From the human T2T-CHM13v2.0 reference genome, Homo sapiens: a stretch of DNA of 64,000 nt. Position 1 is the first letter of the stretch, and each line of letters starts with the position of its first letter. This document shows, one piece after another, positions 2,571 to 60,760 of this stretch. Location of the stretch: NCBI RefSeq assembly GCF_009914755.1, contig NC_060930.1, one strand, 5' to 3'. A program made the position numbers and the translations under genes. A model generated the notes under the pieces. It did no database searches and was not told where the DNA came from. It saw nothing but the letters and a program-made list of their open reading frames with translations.

Positions 2571-5500
2571 ATTCCTTTTCCTGTCCTTTCGTTCAGATAT
2601 CTAAAGCCCTTAGGGAAAAAAAATGGATTGTAAGCTCTGAGCTTTTGAAAAAAAAGAAAGAAAGAAAGAAAAACAAGGGGCGGTCAAAGAGACAGGGGTC
2701 TGTTGATGGAAGGGGTGATTTGACTTCTGGGAGGTGACACAGAGGAAGGAGGTTGGGGTCCTGGGAGGAGATGCCAGGGAACCTGAAGGGCTGGACTTAG
2801 TTGGGGGACTCCAGAAATTTGAGTTGGAATCCCTCCTTCCTCCTTCTGAGAGGCCTTCCTGCATGTCTCCCACCTCTGTGCCACCTCCTTCCCGTCACCA
2901 AAATGGTCCCCAGAGAAAGAAAGAATCTGATACACTTATTCGCACTGAGAAATAGGAGTGCCTTTCAGATTGGCAGCCAGTGTTTGGAGAGGGAGCCCCT
3001 TCCTGGGGTGTTGGAAAGCCCACCACCCCGGGGGCTTCCACTCCACCTGCTTCCTTCTCTGCTGTCCTTCCTTCCAACGCTGCCTGCTTGTACAGGGCTT
3101 GAGAAGTCACAAAGATTTTCACCTGCTTTATCTTGTTGGATCTGTGCAGTTTGAGAAGAATGATATGCCCATTTTATGGACGGCAGAACTGGCAACTGAT
3201 GAGGAAACTGAGGTCCTAAAAGATAAATCGTGTCCCACAGTCCTGCATTAACAGAGCTGGGATTTAGACCAAGAACTTATAAATCGCTGTCCAGTGCTCC
3301 TTCCTGTAGACCACACCACTCCCTCCTGGTGTCCTCTTTCCTGTCTCCTGCTTCCTCCAAAAACTCCTGAATCTGAGGGATGCCCCTTCCTTCTTGTAAC
3401 CTCCAACCCAGGTGTCGTCTCCACGTGCCTTCATCCACCTCAGAGAGATCCCATGAAGCCTGTCAAGTCTTGATTCTAGAAACTGCCATCCTGCCCTTCC
3501 CATGGCCCTTTAGACCCCCTCTGACCGCTGCTTTGCTCTCCTGGTCAGCTCTGCTGCCTTGTGAGGGACAGGGACATCTGGATTGCATCCTTCCCGCTAC
3601 CCAGAACCCACAGCCCCACCTTGTCAGGCTTGCAGCAGGGACTTATGTTGTGGGAGGATGAAATGGAGGAGTGGGGGACACTGGTGGGCAGGGCCTTGCC
3701 CCTCCTCACAGGGCATGGGGTCCAAAGCTTCCTCCCTGCTTCACTTTGCCATTGGCTGTGGTTACTGCTGGAAGATCTCACAAATTAAGCAGAATGATTG
3801 GTCATTGGACATGAACATATATTCATTTCCTCTTTCTGGGAATATGTTGATCCTAGAAGTGAGGAAGGGGTGGGGCCCCAGTCCCCAGGAAGCCTGGTCA
3901 CTCCCTCCCACTCTGCCCTTTCCACTAAACAGTAGAAATCATGGGGATTGCTGCCATTGACTGAGCCTTCTCCATGTGCCCACCATCCTAAGCATTAACT
4001 CAGTCCCCACAGCCATCCCATGGGGGAGGGGCTGCTGTTCCCTTTTGCACAAGTGTAAGCTGAGCCTAAAACATACAACTCTTGCACTCGGTTGCAAACC
4101 TAATATCTGGGTGACCCAGGTCCAGGCCCAGATCTGAGCCCAAGGCCAGGGTTGTTCAGCCTCCACTATGTTACCTGGGCACCCAGGCCCTATGGCACTG
4201 GGTGGCCCTAGCCTCATTTACTCAGTCTTTCCCCAGACCAGAACCTCCCATCTGTCCCAGGGCCCACCACCACTCTCTCCCTGCCCCAAAAAATCCTCCT
4301 GATAACAGTCCACAGCTCTCTTCTGCTCTCCGGAGCACTGATGTCCCCACCTTTGTACCTTTTCCCTGCTGTGCCCTCCTGCTGAAGTGCCCGCCCTCCT
4401 CCTTGCTAGCCCAGTCTGCCTCCAACCCCCTTCACCCCAGCCCCACCTCACAGTCCCCAATCCCTCAGGCCTCTTGAGTCTGCACTGAACCCTGCCCCAA
4501 CCACTCCCTGAACACTTTCACCCACTGCCTTCCCTGTTATGTCACTTGTCCTGTAAAGCATTGACCCCCGAGTAGCCTGAAGACTCTCTCAGGCAGGGCT
4601 CCTGCAGTCACCTTTATACTCCCTGCATTCCCCTCCACCCACGACCACCCAGAACCTGGCACAGTTATGGTTTCTGTAAATACGAGGCGTGGGAGAGGCC
4701 AGAAGTCTGGGTAGTTTGCACTGTGTGTGCCTGCAGGGGTGGGATGAAGGCTCGAAGGTATTTAGAAGCCCTGATCTGGTGTAGGGAGGGGACAAGATAC
4801 TCTTACTGTCAGGAATCCCTCACCTAAGGGGGAGCCACAGCCCCATCCTCAGGAAGCTCCAGTCTGAGGGGAGACACAGCCCCGTCCTCAGGGAGCCCCA
4901 GTCTGAATATAGTTTTATGTCCACAGCTCTGCTCAGAGTAGGTGACAGCGCTGCCCTGGGGTGCAGGAGGCCAGATTGGCCTTCATGGCGCTGTCGTTAA
5001 CCCCTCCCCCCGCCTCTGGGAAGAACTGGCTTCCATACCTCTCTGCCTGCCCCAGACACACCTTCTGCCCCAGTTCCCAGCAGTGACCTTGTGTGTGGTC
5101 TGCTTTCATTCTAGAAACAGAAACCAAGGGGGATTTCTCCGTCTCTCTGCCCTCCACCCCCAGCAGCTGCTGCATTTAGGGGCAGCATGGAAGAGCCCTT
5201 TACCCGGAGAAGAGGGAAGAAGTGAGAAGGGAAACGGGGCGGTGGGGGTTGATCCACCAGGACTTGCTCTGATGAAAACTGTGCCACCTCCTCAGCTGTG
5301 GCTAATGTCATGGACAACACCTTTGCAGCTGTTATGTTTGATTTCTTGTTCTTTTTTTCCCCAAGCAAATACAGTTGACCTTTGCCCTCAGAAGAGCTCT
5401 GTCCTTCAGGGTAGCCCCTGCCGCCTTGGCACACTTATGCCAAGGATGCTGCTGGGGCTTAAAGTGAGCTGGGCCCTTCCATGGGGCCTCCGAGGCAGCA

Positions 5501-7856: not shown

Positions 7857-7964
7857 ACTTGTTCTGCAACCGGACCTTCGATGAATACGCCTGCTGGCCA
7901 GATGGGGAGCCAGGCTCGTTCGTGAATGTCAGCTGCCCCTGGTACCTGCCCTGGGCCAGCAGTG
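7857..7964 (+). CDS. GLP1R: GLP1R coding exon 3 (ECD)
   Basis: (D)[35 protein letters not shown], the class B GPCR hormone-binding motif; tcccag acceptor, GTGAGC donor at 7965; 108 nt. Confidence 0.98.
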
Positions 7965-8333
7965 GTGAGCCCCCTCCCCGACCTGGTACCTGCCCTGGGC
8001 CAGCAGTGGTGAACCCCCTCCCCGACCTGGTATCTGCCCTGGGCCAGCAGTGGTGAGCCCCCTCCCCGACCTGATACCTGCCCTGGGCCAGCAGTGGTGA
8101 GCCCCCTCCCTGACCTGGTACCTGCCCTGGGCCAGCAGTGGTGAGCCCCCTCCCTAACCTGGTACCTGCCGTGGGTCAGCAGTGGTGAGCCCCCTCCCTA
8201 ACCTGGTACCTGCCGTGGGTCAGCAGTGGTGAGCCCCCTCCCTAACCTGGTACCTGCCGTGGGTCAGCAGTGGTGAGCCCCCTCCCTGACCTGGTACCTG
8301 CCCTGGGTCAGCAGTGGTGAGCTCCCTCCCCCA
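7938..8333 (+). repeat. 44-bp minisatellite, 9 copies, spanning the exon 3/intron 3 boundary
   Basis: Unit CCTGGTACCTGCCCTGGGCCAGCAGTGGTGAGCCCCCTCCCCGA; copies start at 7938, 7982, 8026, 8070, 8114, 8158, 8202, 8246, 8290. Confidence 0.97.
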
Positions 8334-9071
8334 CCGTCCCCTGTATCGAGGAGGCTGAGGTCAAGGCGCTGCTTCCTTTCCTCTGAGACACAGCCCTCCC
8401 CACCCAGAATGTCTTTAGGCCTCCTAGTGAGTGGTCCGCCTGCCTTTCCTGGGGTGAGGGGAGCAGTCAGTAGTGATAAGTTTCATGATGGCCTGAGGTA
8501 CCACCTGGGTCTGGGCATGAGGCCAGTGCTGGCCAGTGTGTGGGGAAGGGAAAGTAAGTGTCTGAAGAGAAATGCGACCCCTTCCAATTCAGTAGTCAGG
8601 AAAAGAGCTGGGTGGGGACAGACTCTTGCGGGGAGGGAAGCTACCCAGGGTGTCTGCTGTGTGTATACATGTATGTATGATATGTGTATGCAGGTGGCCC
8701 ATACCTGGCAGTGACATTTAGCTACTTCCTCACTCTTTAGAGGTTCACTGGGAGAAGTGATCAGGGCATTGGTGGGGTGACGAACCCCACCAGACTCAGC
8801 CCTCCTCAGCTCACTCCTGCCTGCAAGGGGGACCTTGTACTGGGGAAGATGTGACTGGGTAGGTGGGAAGGTCATTTCATTGGGGGTACAGAGATTTGCA
8901 GAGGCTGCAAGAGGATCCCTGACTGGAGGGTTAGTTAATGTGCCCCGCTATCTATCCCAGCCTCCCTTGCTGAGCCCAGTTTCACCCAGGCACCGTGGAG
9001 GATAACAGGAGACAAGCACCCTCATGGCAAGGAGCTCCCAGTCTCCATAAGGGGAGAAAAGATATTTCCCT

Positions 9072-9121
9072 ATCATCATCATCATCATCATCATCACCAT
9101 CACCATCATCATCGTCATCAT
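9072..9121. repeat. (ATC)n microsatellite at a MIR end
   Basis: atcatcatcatc...caccatcaccatcatcatcgtcatca. Confidence 0.9.
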
Positions 9122-9310
9122 AGCCAGCATTTATTGAGTACCTACTGTGTGCCAAGTCCTGCCCTAAAAGCAGGGCTTTATAACTATCCTGTGGTTATAC
9201 CTGCTGTACAGATGAGGAAACTGAAGCACAAAAAGTTTAAGTCACTTGTTCCAAATGATGTGGTCAATGGCAGAGCCAGGATTTGAATCCAATTCGTGCT
9301 CCTATCATCA
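9122..9310 (-). mobile_element. MIR (example; similar MIRs near 1530-1670, 7530-7690, 9620-9780, 12100-12290, 13160-13330, 23690-23900, 32140-32310, 34540-34730, 58600-58760)
   Basis: MIR core cagatgaggaaactgaagcaca..ttaagtcacttgttccaa..ggcagagccaggatttgaa. Confidence 0.7.
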
Positions 9311-12300
9311 CACCTTGAAGGGGCTGGAGCCCAAGCAGCAACTGGCCCAGAAGCAAGTGCGGGCATGAGGTTATGCTCTGGGGAAGCCAGGTGTCTTCCT
9401 GGAGGAGGTGGCCTGGTGGGGCCCAATGTAAGCTTCACCTTGGCACGTGGGACTGAAGTCAGATGAGGCCCAGGCTGGTCTCCTAAAAGTACTGTCTCCT
9501 TGTCCACACTCACAGTACACTCACCTCTCCCCAAGGAGCAGGGAGAGCCTGGGCCTAGAAGGAGGCAGGAGCCTGGGCCCATCAGTGGCCTGCCTTCTCC
9601 AATACTGCCTGTTGGAAGCACTTTCCGTGCTACACTCTTTTCATCCTCACAACCCTCTGAGGCAAGTACTCTGATTACCCTCCCATTTTCAGATGGGGAA
9701 ACTAAGGCACAGAGGTGCTCAGTGACTTTTGCAAGCTCACACAGCCATTAGTGGGCGACCCAGAAGCTTGGTTTAGAGTCAGTGTGGCTAATTGCTACAC
9801 CAAAGTCTTCCTTGGGGGTGTGTGTGTGTGCCCTTGCATGTGGCTCTGGCCTGGAGACAGGTGAGTGATCTGGATGCCCTCTGCTGTCTGGGCACACCTC
9901 TAGGGACAGGGATGAGCTGTCTGCCCTCTCCTATGAACTCTGCAATCTGGTGGTTCTGCTGACTAGCCGTGTAAGCAGGAGCAAGTTGCCAGACCTCTCT
10001 GTGCCTTGGTTGACTCATCTGGGAGATGGTATAGAGCCAAGTGACATGGGTGTCGGGAGGACCACAGGGCCTTGAGAAATGGTAGCTGTTAATTTTTCCC
10101 ACCTCCCTACATACCTCCCTGACTTCCTGCAATACACACACTTTCTCTGCCTCCCATAGATTTGAGACTGGCAGCTTGGCCAGCGTCTGCTGGGCCTCTA
10201 GACCCCAGGGAGCCAGGCGTAGGACAGGGCCCATCACTCAGCACTAAGCCACCCCCAGCTCTGCCTGCCGCTTGCAGCTCCATCCATCACCTTTAATTTT
10301 ATTTGAGCAGGAAATAGGTCCTGGTGGTGCCCGTTTATGAGCAAACATGGTTTTATTGCTTTCTCCATGAAGATAACGGCCACTGCACAGGCCCCCTGCC
10401 AGCCTTTCCCCAACCCCGTCCCCCTGCCACTCACCAGGCTAATTTACTCCCTTTTTTGACACTTGGAATCACCGACTCTGCTGCCCTCTCCTCACTCCCT
10501 GAGTTACGGATGCTCAGAGACAACTACCACAGGCTCAAGCTGCGTAATTGCTGCCTCTGGCCTGTCCTGGAGCTTTCCTTGGCAAAGGTTGGCAGCGGAG
10601 GCTTCCCTGACCCCCACCCAGGTGTGTGGGAGCAGTTCTGAAGAAGGGGACAGTTCTGGAGCTTTCTTGGGCTGATCAAGCGAGTAGCCTGTGGAGAAAC
10701 GTCACAGTGTGCCCTGGTGTCAAGGAGAAGGAAGGGAGTTATCTCAGGCAGGGTCCTGGCAGAAAACATGCTCAGTTGGCAATTTGGAGAGAATTTAATG
10801 TTGGGGAGGGGTCATTTTCAGAGGCTGGCAAGGTAAAGGGACCAATGAGGCATATAAAGCACCAGGGACTACAACAATGGAAAGCTTGAGCACCCCTAGA
10901 CCTGAGAAGGAAGGGACAAGAATGGGGCTGGGGGGTCCCCATGACAGCTGGGCTACAATGGAGAAGCCACCCAGCAGGGCTGTGGCCACAGAGGGGACAA
11001 AGTCACAGGCAGACTTCAAATCAAGGCAGGGAGGGAGCAGGGGAGAACACCCAGCCTCTCTCTCCCTCTGCCCTTCCATCTTCTGCCAATGCCTCCCACT
11101 GGCCCAACCCAACAGAGGCCAGGGAAGCCGAGGGGTGCTGTCCCATGGCTCAGGCTTCTAGAGTTCAGAATGGAGCAGAGGAGTGGTGATCTGAGAAACA
11201 GCAAAAGTCAAAACAATCACCAGACCCCTGAGCTGGGTTGTGTTAGGAGCTAGGGTTGCCACTGAGACCTTAGAGGTGTGTGAGTGTGTGCATTGGGGAG
11301 AAGGGGTAACCCCCCTCCATGGAGCTGAAGGTCGGCTCAGCAGCCCAGGCAGTGGTACTGAGGGAGGCCAGAGCCACCCCTTCTGCCAGGAGTGTGGCGG
11401 CATTAGGAAGGCTTCCAGGGACAGGTGACACTGGGGCCAGACGTGAAAGAACAGGCAGATGCAGAAGGGAAAAGGAAGCTCCTCCAAGGAATGAGGGTTC
11501 CAGGCAGCACCCTGGACATGGGGCCAGGCCACGGGCCTCGGAACTACGCAGTGTTCTGGAGAAGCCAGCCAAGCCCTTGAATTCTGACCCCTCTAATTGA
11601 GAACTTGGGTCTCAGGATTGTGCAGAGAGAGCAGGAGCAGATGAGTCAAAGACAGAAGATATTCAAAGGAAATGGCTGGTACAAACGAGACTGGGAGGAG
11701 AAGGCTGAAGTGGCTTCAGAGAGCCTGTTGGCCGCCCGAGGGCCCTTCAGCAGCCTCGTTTACCCACAAACAGCTGATCTGCTTGTTACAAATCATTCCA
11801 GCCTCATTAGCTACACCTCCTCCTGATCCCTACCTGTTTGTTAGCTTAGTTCTAATTATATGAGAGTCATAAAATGCTTTAAAAATAACCTATAACTCAC
11901 AGTTCTTGGAAACTCTGGCGGGTGCCTCCCCTGAGTAATGTGGAGCCTGGGGGTTTTTACGACAGCCTGGGGTTGCCAAGGGGAAACTGAGGCCCAAGCT
12001 TGTCCCCAGAGGAGTTCTGGCTGAAGTGGTGTCACAAGCTCCATCTCCAGCCTCAGTGAAGGAGTGCCCCTTCAAGAAACCGGCATGGGGGAGGATGTTT
12101 CAAAGGTCTACTATGTACCGGGCACTTCACATGCTTTATCTTCTGGGAAGTCATTATGCTTCCCATTTTACAGATAAGGAAACTGAGGCCTGAGGATGTG
12201 AAGGGACATGCTCAACATCCCACAGCTGGTTGAAGGCAGAACCAGGATTTGAACTTGAGTCTGTGTTGTTCAGAACCTGAGCTCCTTCTCCTAAGCCCTG

Positions 12301-14323
12301 ATGCTCTACAGTACCCTTCACCCTGGCCTTGAGCTGATGCCTTCATTTCGAGCCTGGCCTTTGACCCTCACCTCACTCCCTTGGGGAGGCCCTGTGCCTG
12401 GCCTCTCTGAGTCTCAGCTTCTGCATCTGTAAAATGGGGGCCCAGTAGTCCTTGCTGGCCACCTCGTTGCCAGGGTGCAGGAGCTAATGGATTCATGAGC
12501 AGCTCTCCACAGCCCTGAGTGCCAGCATCCACGTGGAAGGGCGGCTGTTAGCTTGATTACAGGCGCCGCAGCAGCTTCCGGGAGGGGAAGTGTTTAATTG
12601 GGGGTTTTATTTCCAGCAGCAGGGTCTGGCTTAATGAAATATCCCTGGGCCTCCTGGCATGTGGCTGCCCTGCTGCCTCCCTGTGTTGACAAGCCTTGAG
12701 CCAAATCCCTGGCTGTGATTTACCAGCTCCTCCCAAGTCAGATAAAGCTGGGTTGATAAGTAGGGCTATGCCCTGACCCACCCCACCTCCAGCCAAGGTG
12801 GGCATCTGGGGATCATGGGCCCAGCCAGGAACCAGCCTGGCTTTTAATATTTGATGTTAATGAAGGGTAATTGACAGATGCACTTGCACAGGCTCACTGA
12901 GCGAGGGACACAGTGATCCTTTGACTCTGTGCTAGTAATGCACACATCTGTGCACACACCACCTCCCCACCCTCCCAACTGGCTCTGAACAGAGGGAGCA
13001 GGAATGGTGCAGCGGCCGGGGGTCCACACTGGCAAGGGGGCCTGCTGGGAGGAGACTGAATGTTGAGAAATCTGAGCCCAGAGGAAGGGCAGAGGAGAAT
13101 GACACATGCCACATTCTTTCCTATTAACAGCAAGTTTGGCTGCTAACTTGGGACCTCCGGAGGCAAAGAGCTGGCGGATTTTAGTCTTGACTCTGCTACT
13201 TTCTAGTTGATGATCTTAGGCAAGTTGTTTGGCTTCTCAGAGGCTCAGTTTCTTCATATGTACAATGGGACTAACTGTTCCTACCTTGAAAGGTGGTTCT
13301 AATGTCCAAAGGTGTCAGGTGTACAGTAGGTGTTCAAAAACTGATTCTGTGAAGGCACAGCCTATGGAAAGAGCAAGTAAGGAGCATGTTGTGAAGGAAT
13401 CTGCAACAAGGCAGTGCCTACTGTATGCCAGGCCCTGTGCCAGCTGTGGGAAGTGCATCTTACTAGCATCACACGGTTGCAGGCTGAGTCCTGGGTATGC
13501 GGGTCTTTAGATGGTTTGTGTGCCTGTGGTTCCATGGCTGTGTCTTCTTTTCTCTGGTCCCTCAACCTTCTTCCTTTCTCCCCATTTCCTCCCATCAAAG
13601 CAGGCTGCTAGTGCAGGCTCTGACACCATCTCATTCCGCATGGAGTCAGCTCAGGTCCCCATCACTGCTTTTGGGGGTATCTACAGGAGAACACTGATTT
13701 TGCCTCACGTCAGAAGACTTGGCCCCAGTGAAGAATCTCAGGCATCCATGCAGCAGATAAGAGAGGCATTTGTGGGCTTGAGAGGGGCCCTTCGCGTTGC
13801 TAAAATCAGACCACGTGCCTCCCCTTCTCTGCCGTTGGGGGTACACCTGATTTTGTTCATAAATGCGTTCGAAGGGTATTGGAACACCATCGTTCCCACT
13901 GCTGTCAGTTTCACCATTAGATTTTCAGGTTTTTGTTTTTCTCCCAGGTGAAGTATCTTTTAAAATGCAGGTTCTTCCAGAAGGAGTCATGCTGCAAGCT
14001 GACTTGCCCCACTGTGTTACCAGATAATTTCTGTGTCTTGAAGGGGGACCTGGTTCAGGGTTTGTTTGGGAAAGGAGCTGGGAAGGAGGAGAAGAAAGAG
14101 CAGGGAGGCTGTCCTGGTGTCTGGGATCAGGGTTAGGGGAGGGCAAGGTCCATTGGCAGGCCTTGCTGACAGTGCTGGAAGAGGCTGTCACCAGACTCTG
14201 CAGTAAAGTTGTCCCTGCCACATTTTTTGCTAGGGTGAAAACTAGAACTCCCAGACTAGATGGTTGCCCCTGTCCTGCACCCCTGAGGGTCAGGCCCTGG
14301 GGCTGCCACAGTCCCCATCGTGT

Positions 14324-14351
14324 ACACACACACACACACACACACAGACAC

Positions 14352-14394
<43 letters not shown>
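14324..14394. repeat. Interrupted (CA)n microsatellite
   Basis: Two CA runs separated by gacacata. Confidence 0.95.
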
Positions 14395-14396
<2 letters not shown>

Positions 14397-14433
14397 CACA
14401 TTAATGAAGCCTCTTCTCAGGAGACTCAGTTCT

Positions 14434-14736
14434 TTTTTTTTTTTTTTTTTTGAGGCAGAGTCTCACTCTGTCGCCTAGGCTGGAGTAGTTAGTGGCTTGA
14501 TCTTAACTCACTACAACCTCCTCCTCCCAAGTTCAAGTGATTTTCGTGCCTCAGCTTCCTGAGTAGCTGGGACTACAGGCGCACGCCACCATGCCTGGCT
14601 AATTTTTTGTATTTTTAGTAGAGATGGGGTTTCACCATGTTGCCCAGGCTGGTCTCGAACTCTTGAGCTCAGGCAATCCACCTGCCTCGGCCTCCCAGAG
14701 TGCTAGGATTACAGGCATGAGCCACCACACCCAGCC
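14434..14736 (-). mobile_element. Alu (older J/S type)
   Basis: Poly-T head, full dimer; TSD gagac(t/c)cagttct at 14421-33 and 14737-49. Confidence 0.95.
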
Positions 14737-16142
14737 GAGACCCAGTTCTGACTGCTGTCTCTCCACATGAACACTGAGCAGCCACTGCCCCCAGTGGGCC
14801 TCTGGTGCCTTCTCCATTCTCTGGCCTTCACTCCCTCCTTCCTCCCACAGCTGGGAAAACTGGTCTTTAAAATCTTCTAGTCTTTTAGAATGTTGAACTC
14901 TTTTAAAGTTTGTCCTGGCTGCAGCTTCTCTCCTTGGTCCCCCTGTTCTTCCTACAGGTCAATATCCCCCCACCCTCTCATTGTGCCCTTTTGTCCCAAG
15001 TTCATTGGCCCTGGTGTCAAACTTAAGTTCCCCTACAGAGAGGCCAGGAATGAACCATTTCCTCCTGGACGCAAGTAAGCAGTGGCCTCTATCAGCCTCA
15101 CATCAAACCTGAGGCCACAGGCCAGCCATCTCCCTGGTAGGTGGACATGGGGCATGGTGGGGGACAGCCTCTGCTGGGATGTGAATGGGCACAGGCAATG
15201 CCCCGCCTTGCCTCTGCAGGGCCTGTGTTTGATCTCTGTTAGTTTCCATCTATGCTCTTCCTTTCTCAGGTCTTTTTTGTTTTTTCTGTGTGAGTCTTGA
15301 TTCTCTGAAGACAGGGACGGTGCCACCATCCTCAGACAGGGGAGCTCCCTGAGGACGGGGGCTGGATCCCTTTCCTCTCTCCAAGGGCTATCTCCATTTC
15401 CAACCTATAATTAGAGTCTATGTGAAGGTAGGAGCTGGGTATTCCCTTTTTCTATGGGGGATCTCCAAAGGCCAAGGCTGCATACGACCATGAGGCCGTG
15501 TACTCCTTTTAGACCAGGGGGTCCTTGCAGGTAGGTCTGTGTCTCCTCCATCAGATTAGAACTTCTTATGGGCAGGGCTGTGTCTCTCTCTCTCTCAGAT
15601 CAGTGCTCTGTCTTCCTTCCCTTCTCTTGGGAACTCAGTGCCAACCTTGTTCCCAGGGTCTGCTCTCCCCAAGGAGTGTGGGAGGGAGGTGGGCACTGAG
15701 TCCTAAAAATCAGAAATAGCGAGTGACTGCGGGGCAGGCACGGCTGCTGCTGGTCGGTGCCAGACCTTGTCAGTAGTGTGATTTGAGGCTGGAGGCAGGG
15801 ACATGGAACTGAGCTAAACTCCTATCATCTCAAAGACATGAATTCATTAAACTGTGTCCTAGGGTTGCCGAGAGGCAGGGCTGAGGGTGGAGCTGAGGAG
15901 CCCCTGCCTTGGTGGCCCCCTGTCTTGTCCCTGGACCAACAGCGTATATGTCAGGGGAGGAAGGTCCAGGTGTGTGTGTGTGTGTTTGTGTGTAAAGAAG
16001 GGAAAAGGATGTCACTAACTCAGAGTAGTCCATTCTGGGGGAGCAGGGATAGCCCTCAGAATGGGGAGGAAGGGGGGCATCTTGCACTGGGCAGGCTGCC
16101 CTATTCTGGGCTGAGGCTCAGGGCCAGGTCTCCCCACCCCAG

Positions 16143-16261
16143 TGCCGCAGGGCCACGTGTACCGGTTCTGCACAGCTGAAGGCCTCTGGCTGCAGAAGGA
16201 CAACTCCAGCCTGCCCTGGAGGGACTTGTCGGAGTGCGAGGAGTCCAAGCGAGGGGAGAGA
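16143..16261 (+). CDS. GLP1R: GLP1R coding exon 4 (ECD C-terminal part)
   Basis: (V)[39 protein letters not shown]; ccccag acceptor, GTGAGT donor; 119 nt. Confidence 0.98.
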
Positions 16262-23284: not shown

Positions 23285-23438
23285 ACACCTGCACTGCACC
23301 CGGAACTACATCCACCTGAACCTGTTTGCATCCTTCATCCTGCGAGCATTGTCCGTCTTCATCAAGGACGCAGCCCTGAAGTGGATGTATAGCACAGCCG
23401 CCCAGCAGCACCAGTGGGATGGGCTCCTCTCCTACCAG
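23285..23438 (+). CDS. GLP1R: GLP1R coding exon 6 (ICL1, TM2, ECL1)
   Basis: [51 protein letters not shown]; ctcag acceptor, GTGTGT donor; 154 nt. Confidence 0.98.
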
Positions 23439-24032
23439 GTGTGTGGTGCATCCAGGACCGCCTCAGGAGGGATGGGCGGTTGGAGGAGGCCTGCCTCTGC
23501 CACCCTAGACAGGCCTGGGACAGGAGAAGACAAGAGCCGAACAGTCCTGGCCCTTCGGGAGCCCCCAGTCTGATGGGAGAGGCAGTTCGCCTTGGGACCC
23601 TCCAGTCTGCTGAGAGAGGCAGTCTACCTTGGGGAGCTCCCAATCTAAGGGAGGAGACACTGCCCTAGGGAATTCTCAGTCTGACACAAAAGAGTAGTCT
23701 TTGGAGACACACTTGAGTTTGAATGTCAGCTCTGTCACTTACTATCTGTACACTTTTAGGCAAGTCACTTACTTCTCTGAGGCTGAGAAATAGGTGAGAA
23801 GTCACTTACTTCTCACCTGCAGGGGGATACATTACTTTCTTCCAATCAGGATAGTGAGGATTCAATGAGCTAAAGCAGATAAAGTCCTTAGCACTAGCCC
23901 TAGCCAGAGATGTGAGCTCTCTCCTCCTGCATTAACCATGGCAGGATAGTGGCTGGAGCAGGACGGGGAGTGGTATCAAGAGAGGCAGAGGGCAGAGCTG
24001 TTGTCCCCATGACACCCTTCCTCTACCCCCAG

Positions 24033-24192
24033 GACTCTCTGAGCTGCCGCCTGGTGTTTCTGCTCATGCAGTACTGTGTGGCGGCCAATTACTACTGGCT
24101 CTTGGTGGAGGGCGTGTACCTGTACACACTGCTGGCCTTCTCGGTCTTCTCTGAGCAATGGATCTTCAGGCTCTACGTGAGCATAGGCTGGG
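24033..24192 (+). CDS. GLP1R: GLP1R coding exon 7 (TM3, ICL2, start of TM4)
   Basis: [53 protein letters not shown](G); ccccag acceptor, GTAAGA donor; 160 nt. Confidence 0.98.

Positions 24193-36588: not shown

Positions 36589-36630
<42 letters not shown>
36589..36630. repeat. (CA)n microsatellite in the proximal GLP1R 3'UTR
   Basis: ~21 perfect CA units about 90 nt after the stop codon. Confidence 0.95.
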
Positions 36631-36636
<6 letters not shown>

Positions 36637-59959: not shown

Positions 59960-60760
59960 TGGCTTTGTTGCTCCAAATGACATGGTTTAGTTATTTTGAT
60001 GGCCAAAGAGTATTCTTTGTGCATATACATTACAGTTTCTTGATCCCTTCATCTGTAGATGGACAGGAGATAAAGTTTTTGGAATCTCCATGCCTGAGAT
60101 TAAAAGGTGTGGGACTTCCTCTACCAGGCTCATTTCCTTGGACCTAATATCCTCTGGGTTTCTTGGGTTTCTCCACATGGCTGTGGATGACAGGATTTCC
60201 CAAAGCTTTATGGCTGAAGCATATTCCATAGTGTATCTGTATGGTGGTTTCTTTATCCCTTCAGCTGTGGGTGGACAGGACAGGTCATTTACCATGATGT
60301 CCTCTAGGTTCAACAGTGTGGCTGCAAATGATGTAATTTCATTACATTTTTCTGGATGAAGAGTATTCCATTTGTGTATATATACTACAGTTTCTTTATC
60401 CCTTCATCTGCGGATGAACAGGTTTCTCCACATGGCTGCCAATGACAGGATTTCATCCACTTCTGTCGTGGAAGGGTATTCCATTCTGGATATATATTTC
60501 AGTTTTGTCATCCCTTCATCAAGGGATGAACAGGTTCAACTGTGTGGCTCCAGGTGATATGATTTCAGTATATGTGCACAGCTGAAGGGTATTCCATTGT
60601 GAATGAATACTACAGTTTCTGTATCCCTTCATCTGTGGATGAACAGGTCTCTCTCCACGTTGCTGGAAGTGGGGTGATGTCCTAAAGTTTGATGGCTGAA
60701 GAGTATTCCATTGTGCAAATATCCTGGAGTTTCTGTATTCCTTCATCTGTGGATGAACAC
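59960..60760 (-). repeat. Six degenerate ~112-114-nt units resembling an antisense L1 3' segment
   Basis: Recurring ...GTATTCCATTGTG...CAGTTTCT.TATCCCTTCATCTGTGGATG(A/G)ACAG; units end at 60066, 60278, 60421, 60533, 60646, 60760. Confidence 0.85.

What the first reader, a model, noticed from the sequence alone, without database searches (positions are those of the whole stretch)
7938..8333. Minisatellite that amplifies the exon 3 splice donor nine times
Seen: the 44-bp unit is the last 27 coding nt of exon 3 (PWYLPWASS) plus the first 17 intronic nt. The donor AGTG|GTGAGC therefore recurs every 44 nt (7964, 8008, 8052 ... 8316). Eight copies keep GTGAG; only copy 2, the nearest competitor, is weakened to GTGAA at +5. 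Donors 2 and 3 add 44 or 88 nt (frameshift). Any later donor includes the in-frame TGA at 8054-56, giving ...[35 protein letters not shown]. Every alternative donor thus yields an NMD target or a truncated ectodomain lacking C104 and C126 (established disulfides C62-C104, C85-C126). Variant blocks (copies 6-8 share GTGGGTC; 5-7 end CCTAA) show recent stepwise expansion. Inference: copy number or unit order could tune productive GLP1R splicing, and unequal exchange with GGGTC copies could move a GCC>GTC (Ala>Val) change into the exon. Short reads here will also mis-map and produce false exon 3 variants.
Basis: partly seen in the sequence, partly recalled or inferred. Interest (0 to 1): 0.8.

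Follow-up and report, generated by a model that had tools for sequence, protein, structure and literature searches.

The report
GLP1R exon 3 splice-donor minisatellite
A 44-base repeat that starts inside exon 3 of the human GLP-1 receptor gene copies that exon's splice signal eight more times into the following intron; this layout is already known from a handful of other human genes, where the extra signals are mostly or wholly ignored, so here it is probably harmless but worth genotyping.

Summary
A 44-bp x 8.9 tandem array lies at 7938-8330, and its first unit is the last 27 nt of GLP1R exon 3 plus the first 17 nt of intron 3. The exon 3 donor GTG|GTGAGC therefore recurs every 44 nt. Seven of the eight intronic copies are identical to it; copy 2 reads GTGAAC. 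Every alternative donor gives a premature stop far upstream of the last junction.

This is not a new kind of element. It belongs to a described class: minisatellites whose first monomer spans an exon-intron boundary. Members are F7 IVS7, CBS IVS13, IFI6 intron 2, LMNB2, PDGFA and ABCA7 intron 18. In F7, LMNB2 and PDGFA only the first donor is used. In IFI6, CBS and ABCA7 the next one or two are used as well.

The most likely reading (about 0.6) is an F7-like array of silent pseudo-sites. About 0.25 goes to low-level use of a downstream donor, which would give NMD transcripts that vary with repeat length.

No RNA, population or primate data could be reached, so polymorphism and donor use are untested. 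I found no paper describing this GLP1R array. Verdict: new member of a known kind, moderate interest.

The parts
7857..7964 (+). GLP1R exon 3 (108 nt, residues about 59-95). It ends in phase 1 with ...CCC TGG TAC CTG CCC TGG GCC AGC AGT G.
   Evidence: Annotation table supplied with the finding; acceptor ...ctcccag|ACT, donor GTG|gtgagccc, and an open frame across exons 2-13.
7938..8333 (+). Minisatellite of nine in-register 44-bp units (TRF: 7938-8330, 8.9 copies). Unit 1 is 27 exonic nt plus 17 intronic nt.
7962..7970 (+). Authentic exon 3 donor 9-mer GTG|GTGAGC.
   Evidence: 5 Watson-Crick pairs plus 1 G-U pair in register with the U1 5' end, duplex -8.1 kcal/mol.
8006..8014 (+). Pseudo-donor of copy 2, GTG|GTGAAC (A at +5), weakened. 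Its use would add 44 nt and put a stop in exon 6.
   Evidence: duplex -5.4 kcal/mol.
8050..8058 (+). Pseudo-donor of copy 3, identical to the authentic 9-mer. Its use would add 88 nt and put a stop in exon 4. Its own G|GTGA supplies the in-frame TGA at 8054-8056 for all later donors.
8094..8322 (+). Pseudo-donors of copies 4-9, with last exonic bases at 8096, 8140, 8184, 8228, 8272 and 8316. All six have the identical 9-mer GTG|GTGAGC. Use of any one includes the TGA at 8054-8056.
8054..8056 (+). In-frame TGA reached by read-through from exon 3.
8072..8074 (+). The copy 4 variant (unit position 5, G>A) reads TGA in the exon frame. It corresponds to c.261G>A, W87*, if transferred to or mis-mapped onto unit 1.
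8175..8309 (+). The unit position 19 C>T variant in copies 6-9 (GCC>GTC). It corresponds to c.275C>T, A92V, if projected on the exon.
16143..16261 (+). Exon 4, the single acceptor that all nine donors would join. It encodes C104 and C126.
   Evidence: Annotation table.

Best explanation
What it is. This is a real minisatellite made by tandem duplication (slippage or unequal exchange) of a 44-bp segment straddling the GLP1R exon 3 / intron 3 junction. Unit 1 is held in place by selection on the coding sequence PWYLPWASS and on the donor. Units 2-9 are intronic copies drifting from it.

How it most likely works. The pre-mRNA carries nine tandem 5' splice sites, eight of them identical. The splicing machinery most likely takes only the most upstream one. 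That site closes a 108-nt exon, and 5' splice site choice among closely spaced identical sites is upstream-first, as shown for the F7 IVS7 minisatellite. On this reading the eight downstream sites are functional but silent pseudo-sites, and the array is close to neutral. They would become active only if the first donor is damaged. Copy 3, or the weakened copy 2, would then take over, or exon 3 would be skipped, and each outcome inactivates the receptor.

Shown versus inferred. Shown: the anatomy, the identity of the sites, the coding consequences, and the lack of a structural explanation. Inferred by analogy: that the downstream sites are silent.
For: Anatomy and significance.

The array is found at only one locus in the window's own genome: 1 candidate locus, with 4 overlapping matches all within it. 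The tool warns that such counts are lower bounds.

Seven of the 8 intronic donor 9-mers are identical to the authentic one, so site strength cannot explain the choice.

Predicted RNA structure does not favour the first site. The probability that the 9-mer is unpaired is 0.0003-0.0005 for 7964 and 0.0000-0.0035 for the others. The exon-plus-array RNA folds worse than shuffles: -172.4 against -193.7 +/- 6.3 kcal/mol, z = +3.41, with 100 of 100 shuffles folding at least as well.

The supplied RefSeq table has only 7964 as the exon 3 donor in its 3 transcripts.

Precedent (PMC1557585: abstract, introduction, results section 6 and discussion read). In F7 the first 37-bp unit spans exon 7/IVS7 and five to nine identical sites are present. 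Only the most upstream is used. Pseudo-sites are activated one after another when upstream ones are inactivated, and no structure or intronic element explains this. The same paper states that LMNB2 (100-bp unit) and PDGF intron 4 (81-bp unit) also use only the authentic site.

Extended exons would be 152-460 nt, which moves away from the short exon favoured by exon definition (established knowledge).
Against: No RNA data were available, so silence of the pseudo-sites is inferred only by analogy.

Three members of the same class are leaky. IFI6 and CBS use the two next pseudo-sites. ABCA7 shows retention of one 25-bp unit, and its splicing depends on repeat length.

The exon 3 donor is weak by U1 complementarity: 6 in-register pairs at -8.1 kcal/mol. 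Of the 11 annotated donors, only exon 4's is weaker (-6.5) and exon 11's ties. A weak first site could be skipped more easily.

NMD would hide such products from transcript catalogues, so their absence from RefSeq is weak evidence.

Classical duplicated-site experiments gave conflicting outcomes, as the F7 paper itself states.
Confidence: 0.6

Rival explanations
1. Leaky array. A minority of transcripts use a downstream donor, most likely copy 3, since copy 2 is weakened. This gives frameshifted, NMD-targeted mRNAs. The number, order or sequence of units, including the A at +5 of copy 2, then sets the unproductive fraction. The VNTR would be a cis modifier of GLP1R expression.
For: IFI6 and CBS use the first two pseudo-sites as well as the authentic one.

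The title of Yang et al. [quoted passage not shown] The title of Lievers et al. 2001 links the 31-bp VNTR to reduced CBS activity. I saw titles only, in the reference list.

In ABCA7 a 25-bp VNTR that includes the exon 18 donor shows one-unit retention giving a PTC, and splicing depends on its length (passages).

The GLP1R exon 3 donor is among the weakest of the gene's 11 donors.

All alternative products are predicted NMD targets, so they would be under-represented in annotation.
Against: The units of the leaky cases I could document are short: CBS 31 bp (title), ABCA7 25 bp, and IFI6 12 nt (recalled, from no call). The silent cases have 37, 81 and 100 bp, and GLP1R's 44 bp sits with the silent group. 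This rests on only six genes.

The donor sites show neither excess decay nor excess conservation: 1 event observed against 1.84 expected. That gives no sign of selection on them.

Heterozygous loss-of-signalling GLP1R variants showed no cardiometabolic association in 8642 Danes (passages). A small leak would therefore be hard to see as a phenotype.
Confidence: 0.25
2. Positive element. The repeated U1-binding sites, or the DNA itself (C-rich sense strand, G-rich template strand), act as an intronic enhancer of exon 3 definition or of transcription. More units would then give more productive mRNA.
For: The array offers eight extra U1-complementary sites within 352 nt of a weak authentic donor. 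It is 69% G+C and 40% C on the sense strand. I recall that F7 alleles with more IVS7 repeats were reported to give higher factor VII expression.
Against: In F7 no autonomous regulating element was found in the neighbouring intronic sequence (section heading; discussion). The RefSeq functional elements in the supplied table do not cover 7938-8333. No data here bear on protein binding. A recalled recombination-hotspot 13-mer has 8 matches in the window and none in the array.
Confidence: 0.1
3. Artefact or chance: an assembly error or a fortuitous similarity.
For: None found.
Against: TRF score 667 with no indels. Nine in-register matches against 0.00 expected. Sharp edges, with structured variants shared between neighbouring copies. 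The array is found once, at the window's own place in the genome.
Confidence: 0.01

Closest known systems
F7 intron 7 (IVS7) 37-bp minisatellite (Borensztajn et al. 2006, PMC1557585)
   Same: The first monomer spans the exon-intron boundary. The authentic, rather weak donor is followed by identical pseudo-donors at a fixed spacing of a few tens of bases: five to nine sites in all in F7, nine in GLP1R. Predicted RNA structure does not single out the first site in either case (for F7; here).
   Different: The F7 unit holds only 4 exonic nt, while the GLP1R unit holds 27 nt encoding ligand-binding residues. In F7 some pseudo-sites would keep the frame; in GLP1R none does. F7 is known to be polymorphic and was tested with 50 minigenes. 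GLP1R has no such data here.
CBS exon 13/intron 13 31-bp VNTR (Yang et al. 2000; Lievers et al. 2001; cited in PMC1557585)
   Same: The VNTR lies on the exon/intron border and reiterates the donor. In both genes the second repeat carries a single-base change; in GLP1R it is G>A at +5 of the copy-2 donor.
   Different: CBS uses two pseudo-sites as well as the authentic donor, and its repeat length has been linked to enzyme activity (title only). Neither is known for GLP1R. I did not read the CBS papers.
ABCA7 intron 18 25-bp VNTR (De Roeck et al. 2018, PMC5954066)
   Same: The VNTR includes the splice donor of the upstream exon. Use of the next donor retains one unit and gives a PTC. Short reads map poorly there.
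   Different: The ABCA7 array is much larger: 592 bp in the reference, with alleles of 837 to 9711 bp named in the passages. It starts at the GT rather than inside the exon, and it has shown effects on splicing and disease risk.
IFI6 (6-16) intron 2, LMNB2 and PDGFA intron 4 minisatellites (as listed in PMC1557585)
   Same: The exon-intron junction is reiterated by a minisatellite.
   Different: IFI6 has 25 pseudo-sites, and use of the first two is constitutive. LMNB2 (100 bp) and PDGFA (81 bp) use only the authentic site. The primary papers were not available.

Membership tests
Minisatellites whose first monomer spans an exon-intron boundary and reiterates the 5' splice site (F7, CBS, IFI6, LMNB2, PDGFA, ABCA7) | Head-to-tail array of a unit of roughly 10-100 bp in several copies | tested here: met
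   44 bp x 8.9 copies, 96% matches, score 667. Nine in-register copies.
Minisatellites whose first monomer spans an exon-intron boundary and reiterates the 5' splice site (F7, CBS, IFI6, LMNB2, PDGFA, ABCA7) | The first unit contains the annotated exon-intron junction | tested here: met
   Unit 1 is 7938-7981, and exon 3 ends at 7964 (annotation table). The reading frame and GT-AG sites were checked.
Minisatellites whose first monomer spans an exon-intron boundary and reiterates the 5' splice site (F7, CBS, IFI6, LMNB2, PDGFA, ABCA7) | The donor sequence is repeated unchanged in the downstream units | tested here: met
   Seven of 8 intronic copies carry the identical 9-mer GTGGTGAGC. Copy 2 differs at +5.
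Minisatellites whose first monomer spans an exon-intron boundary and reiterates the 5' splice site (F7, CBS, IFI6, LMNB2, PDGFA, ABCA7) | Copy number varies between individuals (a VNTR in the strict sense) | not testable with these tools
   Only one human assembly is held. Four VNTR or tandem-repeat catalogue supplements do not list this array.
Minisatellites whose first monomer spans an exon-intron boundary and reiterates the 5' splice site (F7, CBS, IFI6, LMNB2, PDGFA, ABCA7) | Splicing uses the first donor only, or the first two or three | not testable with these tools
   No RNA data are available. The supplied RefSeq table lists only 7964.
Unproductive splicing coupled to nonsense-mediated decay | The alternative isoform carries a stop more than 50-55 nt upstream of the last exon junction | tested here: met
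   For all 8 alternative donors the stop lies 680-1201 nt upstream of the last junction.
Unproductive splicing coupled to nonsense-mediated decay | The alternative isoform is actually made and is stabilised when NMD is blocked | not testable with these tools
   No transcript data. Literature searches for GLP1R splice variants found none at exon 3 (listings only).

The most novel reading that the evidence does not exclude
The GLP1R exon 3 minisatellite varies in length and sequence between people, and a measurable share of pre-mRNA is spliced from a downstream copy of the donor into NMD. The allele would then act as an unrecognised cis determinant of receptor abundance, invisible to SNP arrays and short reads. 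What matters would be the number of units, whether copy 2 keeps its weakening A at +5, and exchanges that carry W87* or A92V units into the exon. It could contribute to differences in incretin physiology or in response to GLP-1 receptor agonists, as the ABCA7 donor-containing VNTR does for Alzheimer risk.
Probability: 0.12. Interest if true: 0.7.

Novelty: new member of a known kind. Interest (0 to 1): 0.4.

Why it matters
GLP1R is the target of the most widely used incretin drugs, and its pharmacogenetics has been studied almost entirely through SNPs.

A repeat that abuts and copies the exon 3 donor has three practical consequences, whatever its function:

- Variant interpretation. A variant in the authentic donor cannot be rescued in frame by any of the eight spare donors. 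Such variants should be read as loss of function.
- False calls. Reads lying within the array have near-equal alternative placements. The units carry differences that would read as W87*, A92V and two synonymous changes if projected on the exon. Calls at c.261, c.264, c.270 and c.275 deserve scrutiny.
- A natural test case. It is a further natural test of how the spliceosome picks one among identical tandem 5' splice sites, the question the F7 array was used to study.

If the array is polymorphic and leaky, it would be a candidate hidden expression modifier. However, heterozygous loss-of-signalling carriers show no clear phenotype, which limits the expected effect size.

Tried and rejected
1. 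RNA or DNA structure as the reason for first-donor choice, or as a driver of instability. All nine donors are predicted mostly paired, with no advantage for the first. The RNA array is less structured than shuffles (z = +3.41). Three DNA units are unremarkable (z = 0.96; 167 of 200 shuffles fold at least as well).

2. A recalled recombination-hotspot 13-mer (CCNCCNTNNCCNC). It has 8 matches in the window (2.58 expected), none in the array.

3. Other copies in the genome. None was found outside the locus. The tool's counts are lower bounds.

4. Selection on the copy-2 donor. It cannot be told from chance (P = 0.21).

5. Literature on this array.
   - GLP1R + VNTR: 10 papers.
   - GLP1R + tandem repeat + intron: 16 papers.
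   - GLP1R + minisatellite: 1 paper.
   - GLP1R + exon 3 + splice: 16 papers.
   - GLP1R + alternative splicing + isoform + truncated: 22 papers.
   - GLP1R / 44-bp / 44 bp / intron 3, at least two terms: 84 papers, 20 listed.
   From the listings none concerns this repeat. The three I opened deal with other things: a GA dinucleotide repeat between exons 10 and 11, a deletion downstream of pig GLP1R, and tag SNPs.

6. VNTR and tandem-repeat catalogue supplements.
   - Bakhtiari 2021 lists one GLP1R repeat, in the 3' UTR.
   - Eslami Rasekh 2021, Lu 2021 and Hamanaka 2023 have no GLP1R entry in the files held.
   - A coordinate search of Lu 2021 with recalled GRCh38 positions found nothing.
   Some files were unreadable or may have been cut when stored, so these blanks are weak.

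7. A92V or W87* in print. 'A92V', 'Ala92Val' and 'A92T' did not co-occur with GLP1R. The Danish study reports W87R, not W87*, and has no 'A92' in its main text. Its supplements could not be read.

8. Sources that were closed or not held: earlier findings of this scan, Turri 1995, Garg 2021 and Gao 2023.

9. Primate or other human assemblies. No tool holds them, so the age of the array and its polymorphism stay open.

Full report
**The observation**

The window sequence from 7938 to 8333 is nine in-register 44-bp units. Tandem Repeats Finder reports one array at 7938-8330: period 44, 8.9 copies, 96% matches, no indels, score 667. It is the strongest of the 12 rows found in the whole 64-kb window; the next scores 327. 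A 32-nt core of the unit occurs nine times with at most three mismatches, always 44 nt apart, against 0.00 expected in 100 dinucleotide-preserving shuffles.

The edges are sharp. In-register 44-mers inside the array share 40-43 of 44 bases with the consensus, and the two on each side share 7-12 of 44. In the window's own genome the array was found only at this locus: one candidate locus, with four overlapping matches all inside it. The tool warns that counts of repeats are lower bounds.

**Relation to the gene**

Exon 3 of GLP1R (7857-7964 in the supplied annotation) has a normal acceptor and the donor GTG|gtgagccc. Exons 2-13 translate without a stop.

The exonic part encodes (P)WYLPWASS, residues 86-94. 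A review states that Y88A, L89A and W91A abolish detectable binding, and that the ectodomain disulfides are 46-71, 62-104 and 85-126 (passages). Cysteines fall at exactly those numbers in the translation.

**The donors**

The 9-mer GTGGTGAGC recurs with its last exonic base at 7964, 8052, 8096, 8140, 8184, 8228, 8272 and 8316. Copy 2 (8008) reads GTGGTGAAC.

I measured complementarity to the 5' end of U1 snRNA, a short motif that I recalled. The exon 3 donor forms 5 Watson-Crick pairs and 1 G-U pair in register, with a duplex energy of -8.1 kcal/mol. Of the gene's 11 annotated donors (range -6.5 to -12.3), only exon 4's is weaker and exon 11's ties. Copy 2 drops to -5.4.

**Coding consequences**

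| Donor used | Added nt | Stop codon |
|---|---|---|
| 8008 | 44 | exon 6 |
| 8052 | 88 | exon 4 |
| 8096 to 8316 (six donors) | 132-352 | TGA at 8054-8056 |

- That TGA is the G|GTGA of the third donor itself. Because 44 leaves a remainder of 2 on division by 3, the frame rotates from unit to unit.
- In all eight cases the stop lies 680-1201 nt upstream of the last exon junction. By the usual 50-55 nt rule (established knowledge), these would be NMD substrates.
- No spare donor can rescue the frame.

**History of the array**

Nineteen of 396 cells differ from the consensus, at eight variable unit positions. Neighbouring units are more alike than distant ones, and copies 6 and 7 are identical. 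Copies 6-8 share G14 and T19, and copies 5-7 share the ending CCTAA.

I count about nine separate mutational events. One falls in a donor 9-mer, where 1.84 would be expected. The chance that at least one hits the copy-2 donor is 0.21. The sequence therefore gives no sign that the spare donors are either protected or selected against. The weakened nearest competitor may be an accident.

**What explains the choice of the first donor?**

- Site strength does not, since seven competitors are identical.
- Predicted structure does not. The probability that the 9-mer is unpaired is 0.0003-0.0005 for the authentic site and 0.0000-0.0035 for the others.
- The exon-plus-array RNA is less structured than its shuffles (z = +3.41; 100 of 100 shuffles fold at least as well).
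- Three DNA units are unremarkable (z = 0.96).
- What remains is position: the first site closes a 108-nt exon, and the others would give exons of 152-460 nt.

**What is known**

A search for VNTRs with cryptic splice donors led to Borensztajn et al. 2006 (PMC1557585). I read its abstract, introduction, results section 6 and discussion. [quoted passage not shown]

| Gene and site | Unit | Donor use | Source |
|---|---|---|---|
| F7 IVS7 | 37 bp, five to nine repeats | only the first | |
| LMNB2 | 100 bp | only the authentic site | |
| PDGF intron 4 | 81 bp | only the authentic site | |
| IFI6 intron 2 | 25 pseudo-sites | the two nearest used as well | |
| CBS IVS13 | 31 bp (title), 15-20 repeats | two pseudo-sites used as well | |
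| ABCA7 intron 18 | 25 bp | one-unit retention; splicing depends on length | |

[quoted passage not shown] Inactivating upstream sites activates the next one and increases exon skipping. The authors exclude structure and intronic elements and propose 5'-to-3' scanning.

[quoted passage not shown] It also carries one linking the 31-bp VNTR to reduced CBS activity (titles only).

De Roeck et al. 2018 (PMC5954066, passages) describe a 25-bp VNTR that includes the ABCA7 exon 18 donor. They report retention of one unit giving a PTC, and effects of repeat length on splicing.

**Reading**

GLP1R joins this class on all three sequence-level criteria tested. The two behavioural criteria, polymorphism and donor use, could not be tested.

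- Upstream-first choice with silent pseudo-sites: about 0.6. The 44-bp spacing lies with the silent cases (37, 81, 100 bp) rather than the leaky ones (25 and 31 bp; IFI6's 12 nt is recalled). This is a comparison of six genes only.
- A leaky array that feeds NMD and depends on repeat length or on the copy-2 substitution: about 0.25. The precedents are real, the first donor is weak, and NMD would hide the products.
- An enhancing role for the repeated U1 sites or for the DNA: about 0.1.
- An artefact: excluded.

Exchange between unit 1 and a later unit would replace the 3' part of the exonic segment. Projected on the exon, the unit differences are:

| Source copies | Change | Effect |
|---|---|---|
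| copy 3 | c.264C>T | synonymous |
| copies 6-8 | c.270C>G | synonymous |
| copies 6-9 | c.275C>T | A92V |

I found no report of A92V or W87*. The Danish resequencing study reports W87R, a different change, and its supplements could not be read.

Reads lying wholly inside the array have off-register placements at about 4% mismatch or less for lengths of 50-250 nt. Mis-mapping is therefore plausible where a person's array differs from the reference, but I did not test it on real reads.

**Is this array in print?**

I found no paper describing it in the six GLP1R searches, judging from the listings and the three papers I opened. The repeat polymorphism studied so far in GLP1R pharmacogenetics is a GA dinucleotide between exons 10 and 11.

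Four VNTR or tandem-repeat catalogues do not list the array in the supplement files held. One of them lists only a 3' UTR repeat for GLP1R. These blanks are weak, because some files were unreadable or may have been cut when stored. Any genome browser's simple-repeat track would show the array.

**Weight**

[quoted passage not shown] A modest splicing leak would therefore be expected to have a small effect.

A 48-man pilot found nominal associations of three intron 3 tag SNPs with gastric emptying and called the region worth further study. This is a lead only.

Verdict: a real, well-described observation and a new member of a known kind. Interest is moderate because of the gene, and the functional claims remain open.

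Noticed in passing
window 8072-8074 (copy 4): Copy 4 carries G>A at unit position 5. In the exon 3 frame this turns TGG (W87) into TGA.
   Followed up: partly
window 8054-8056 and every third donor: The in-frame stop is the donor's own G|GTGA. Because 44 leaves a remainder of 2 on division by 3, the frame rotates by unit, so the donor motif itself closes the read-through frame at the third copy.
   Followed up: yes
window 8170-8176, 8214-8220, 8258-8264 (copies 6-8): The C>G and C>T variants of copies 6-8 create extra GT sites, GCC|GTGGGT and TGG|GTCAGC. Each has six or more in-register pairs to the U1 5' end. They are probably weak.
   Followed up: no
window 4809-4906: A 39-bp unit is repeated about 2.4 times (TRF scores 112-128). 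It lies inside the RefSeq enhancer element 4486-4987 in intron 1.
   Followed up: no
window 23552-23633: A 37-bp unit is repeated about 2.2 times, starting 114 nt downstream of the exon 6 donor at 23438. It does not include the splice site.
   Followed up: no
window 14324-14394 and 36590-36636: Two long AC dinucleotide runs: 36 copies in intron 3 and 23.5 copies in the 3' UTR, about 94 nt after the stop codon. Either could be one of the simple-sequence polymorphisms used in early GLP1R linkage papers, which appear in a reference list. I did not check this.
   Followed up: no
window 60306-60648: A 113-bp unit is repeated 3.0 times (72% matches, score 327). It ends about 100 nt upstream of the ANKRD18EP pseudogene span, which starts at 60756.
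   Followed up: no
window 24033-24192 (exon 7): The window's coding sequence reads ...AFSVFSEQW, with Phe at residue 260. I recall this as the site of a common Leu/Phe polymorphism. That recollection comes from no call.
   Followed up: no
intron 3 (7965-16142), literature: A pilot study of 48 men reported nominal associations of three neighbouring intron 3 tag SNPs (rs9283907, rs742764, rs2254336) with gastric emptying, and found no functional variant there. Whether these SNPs tag alleles of the array is unknown.
   Followed up: no
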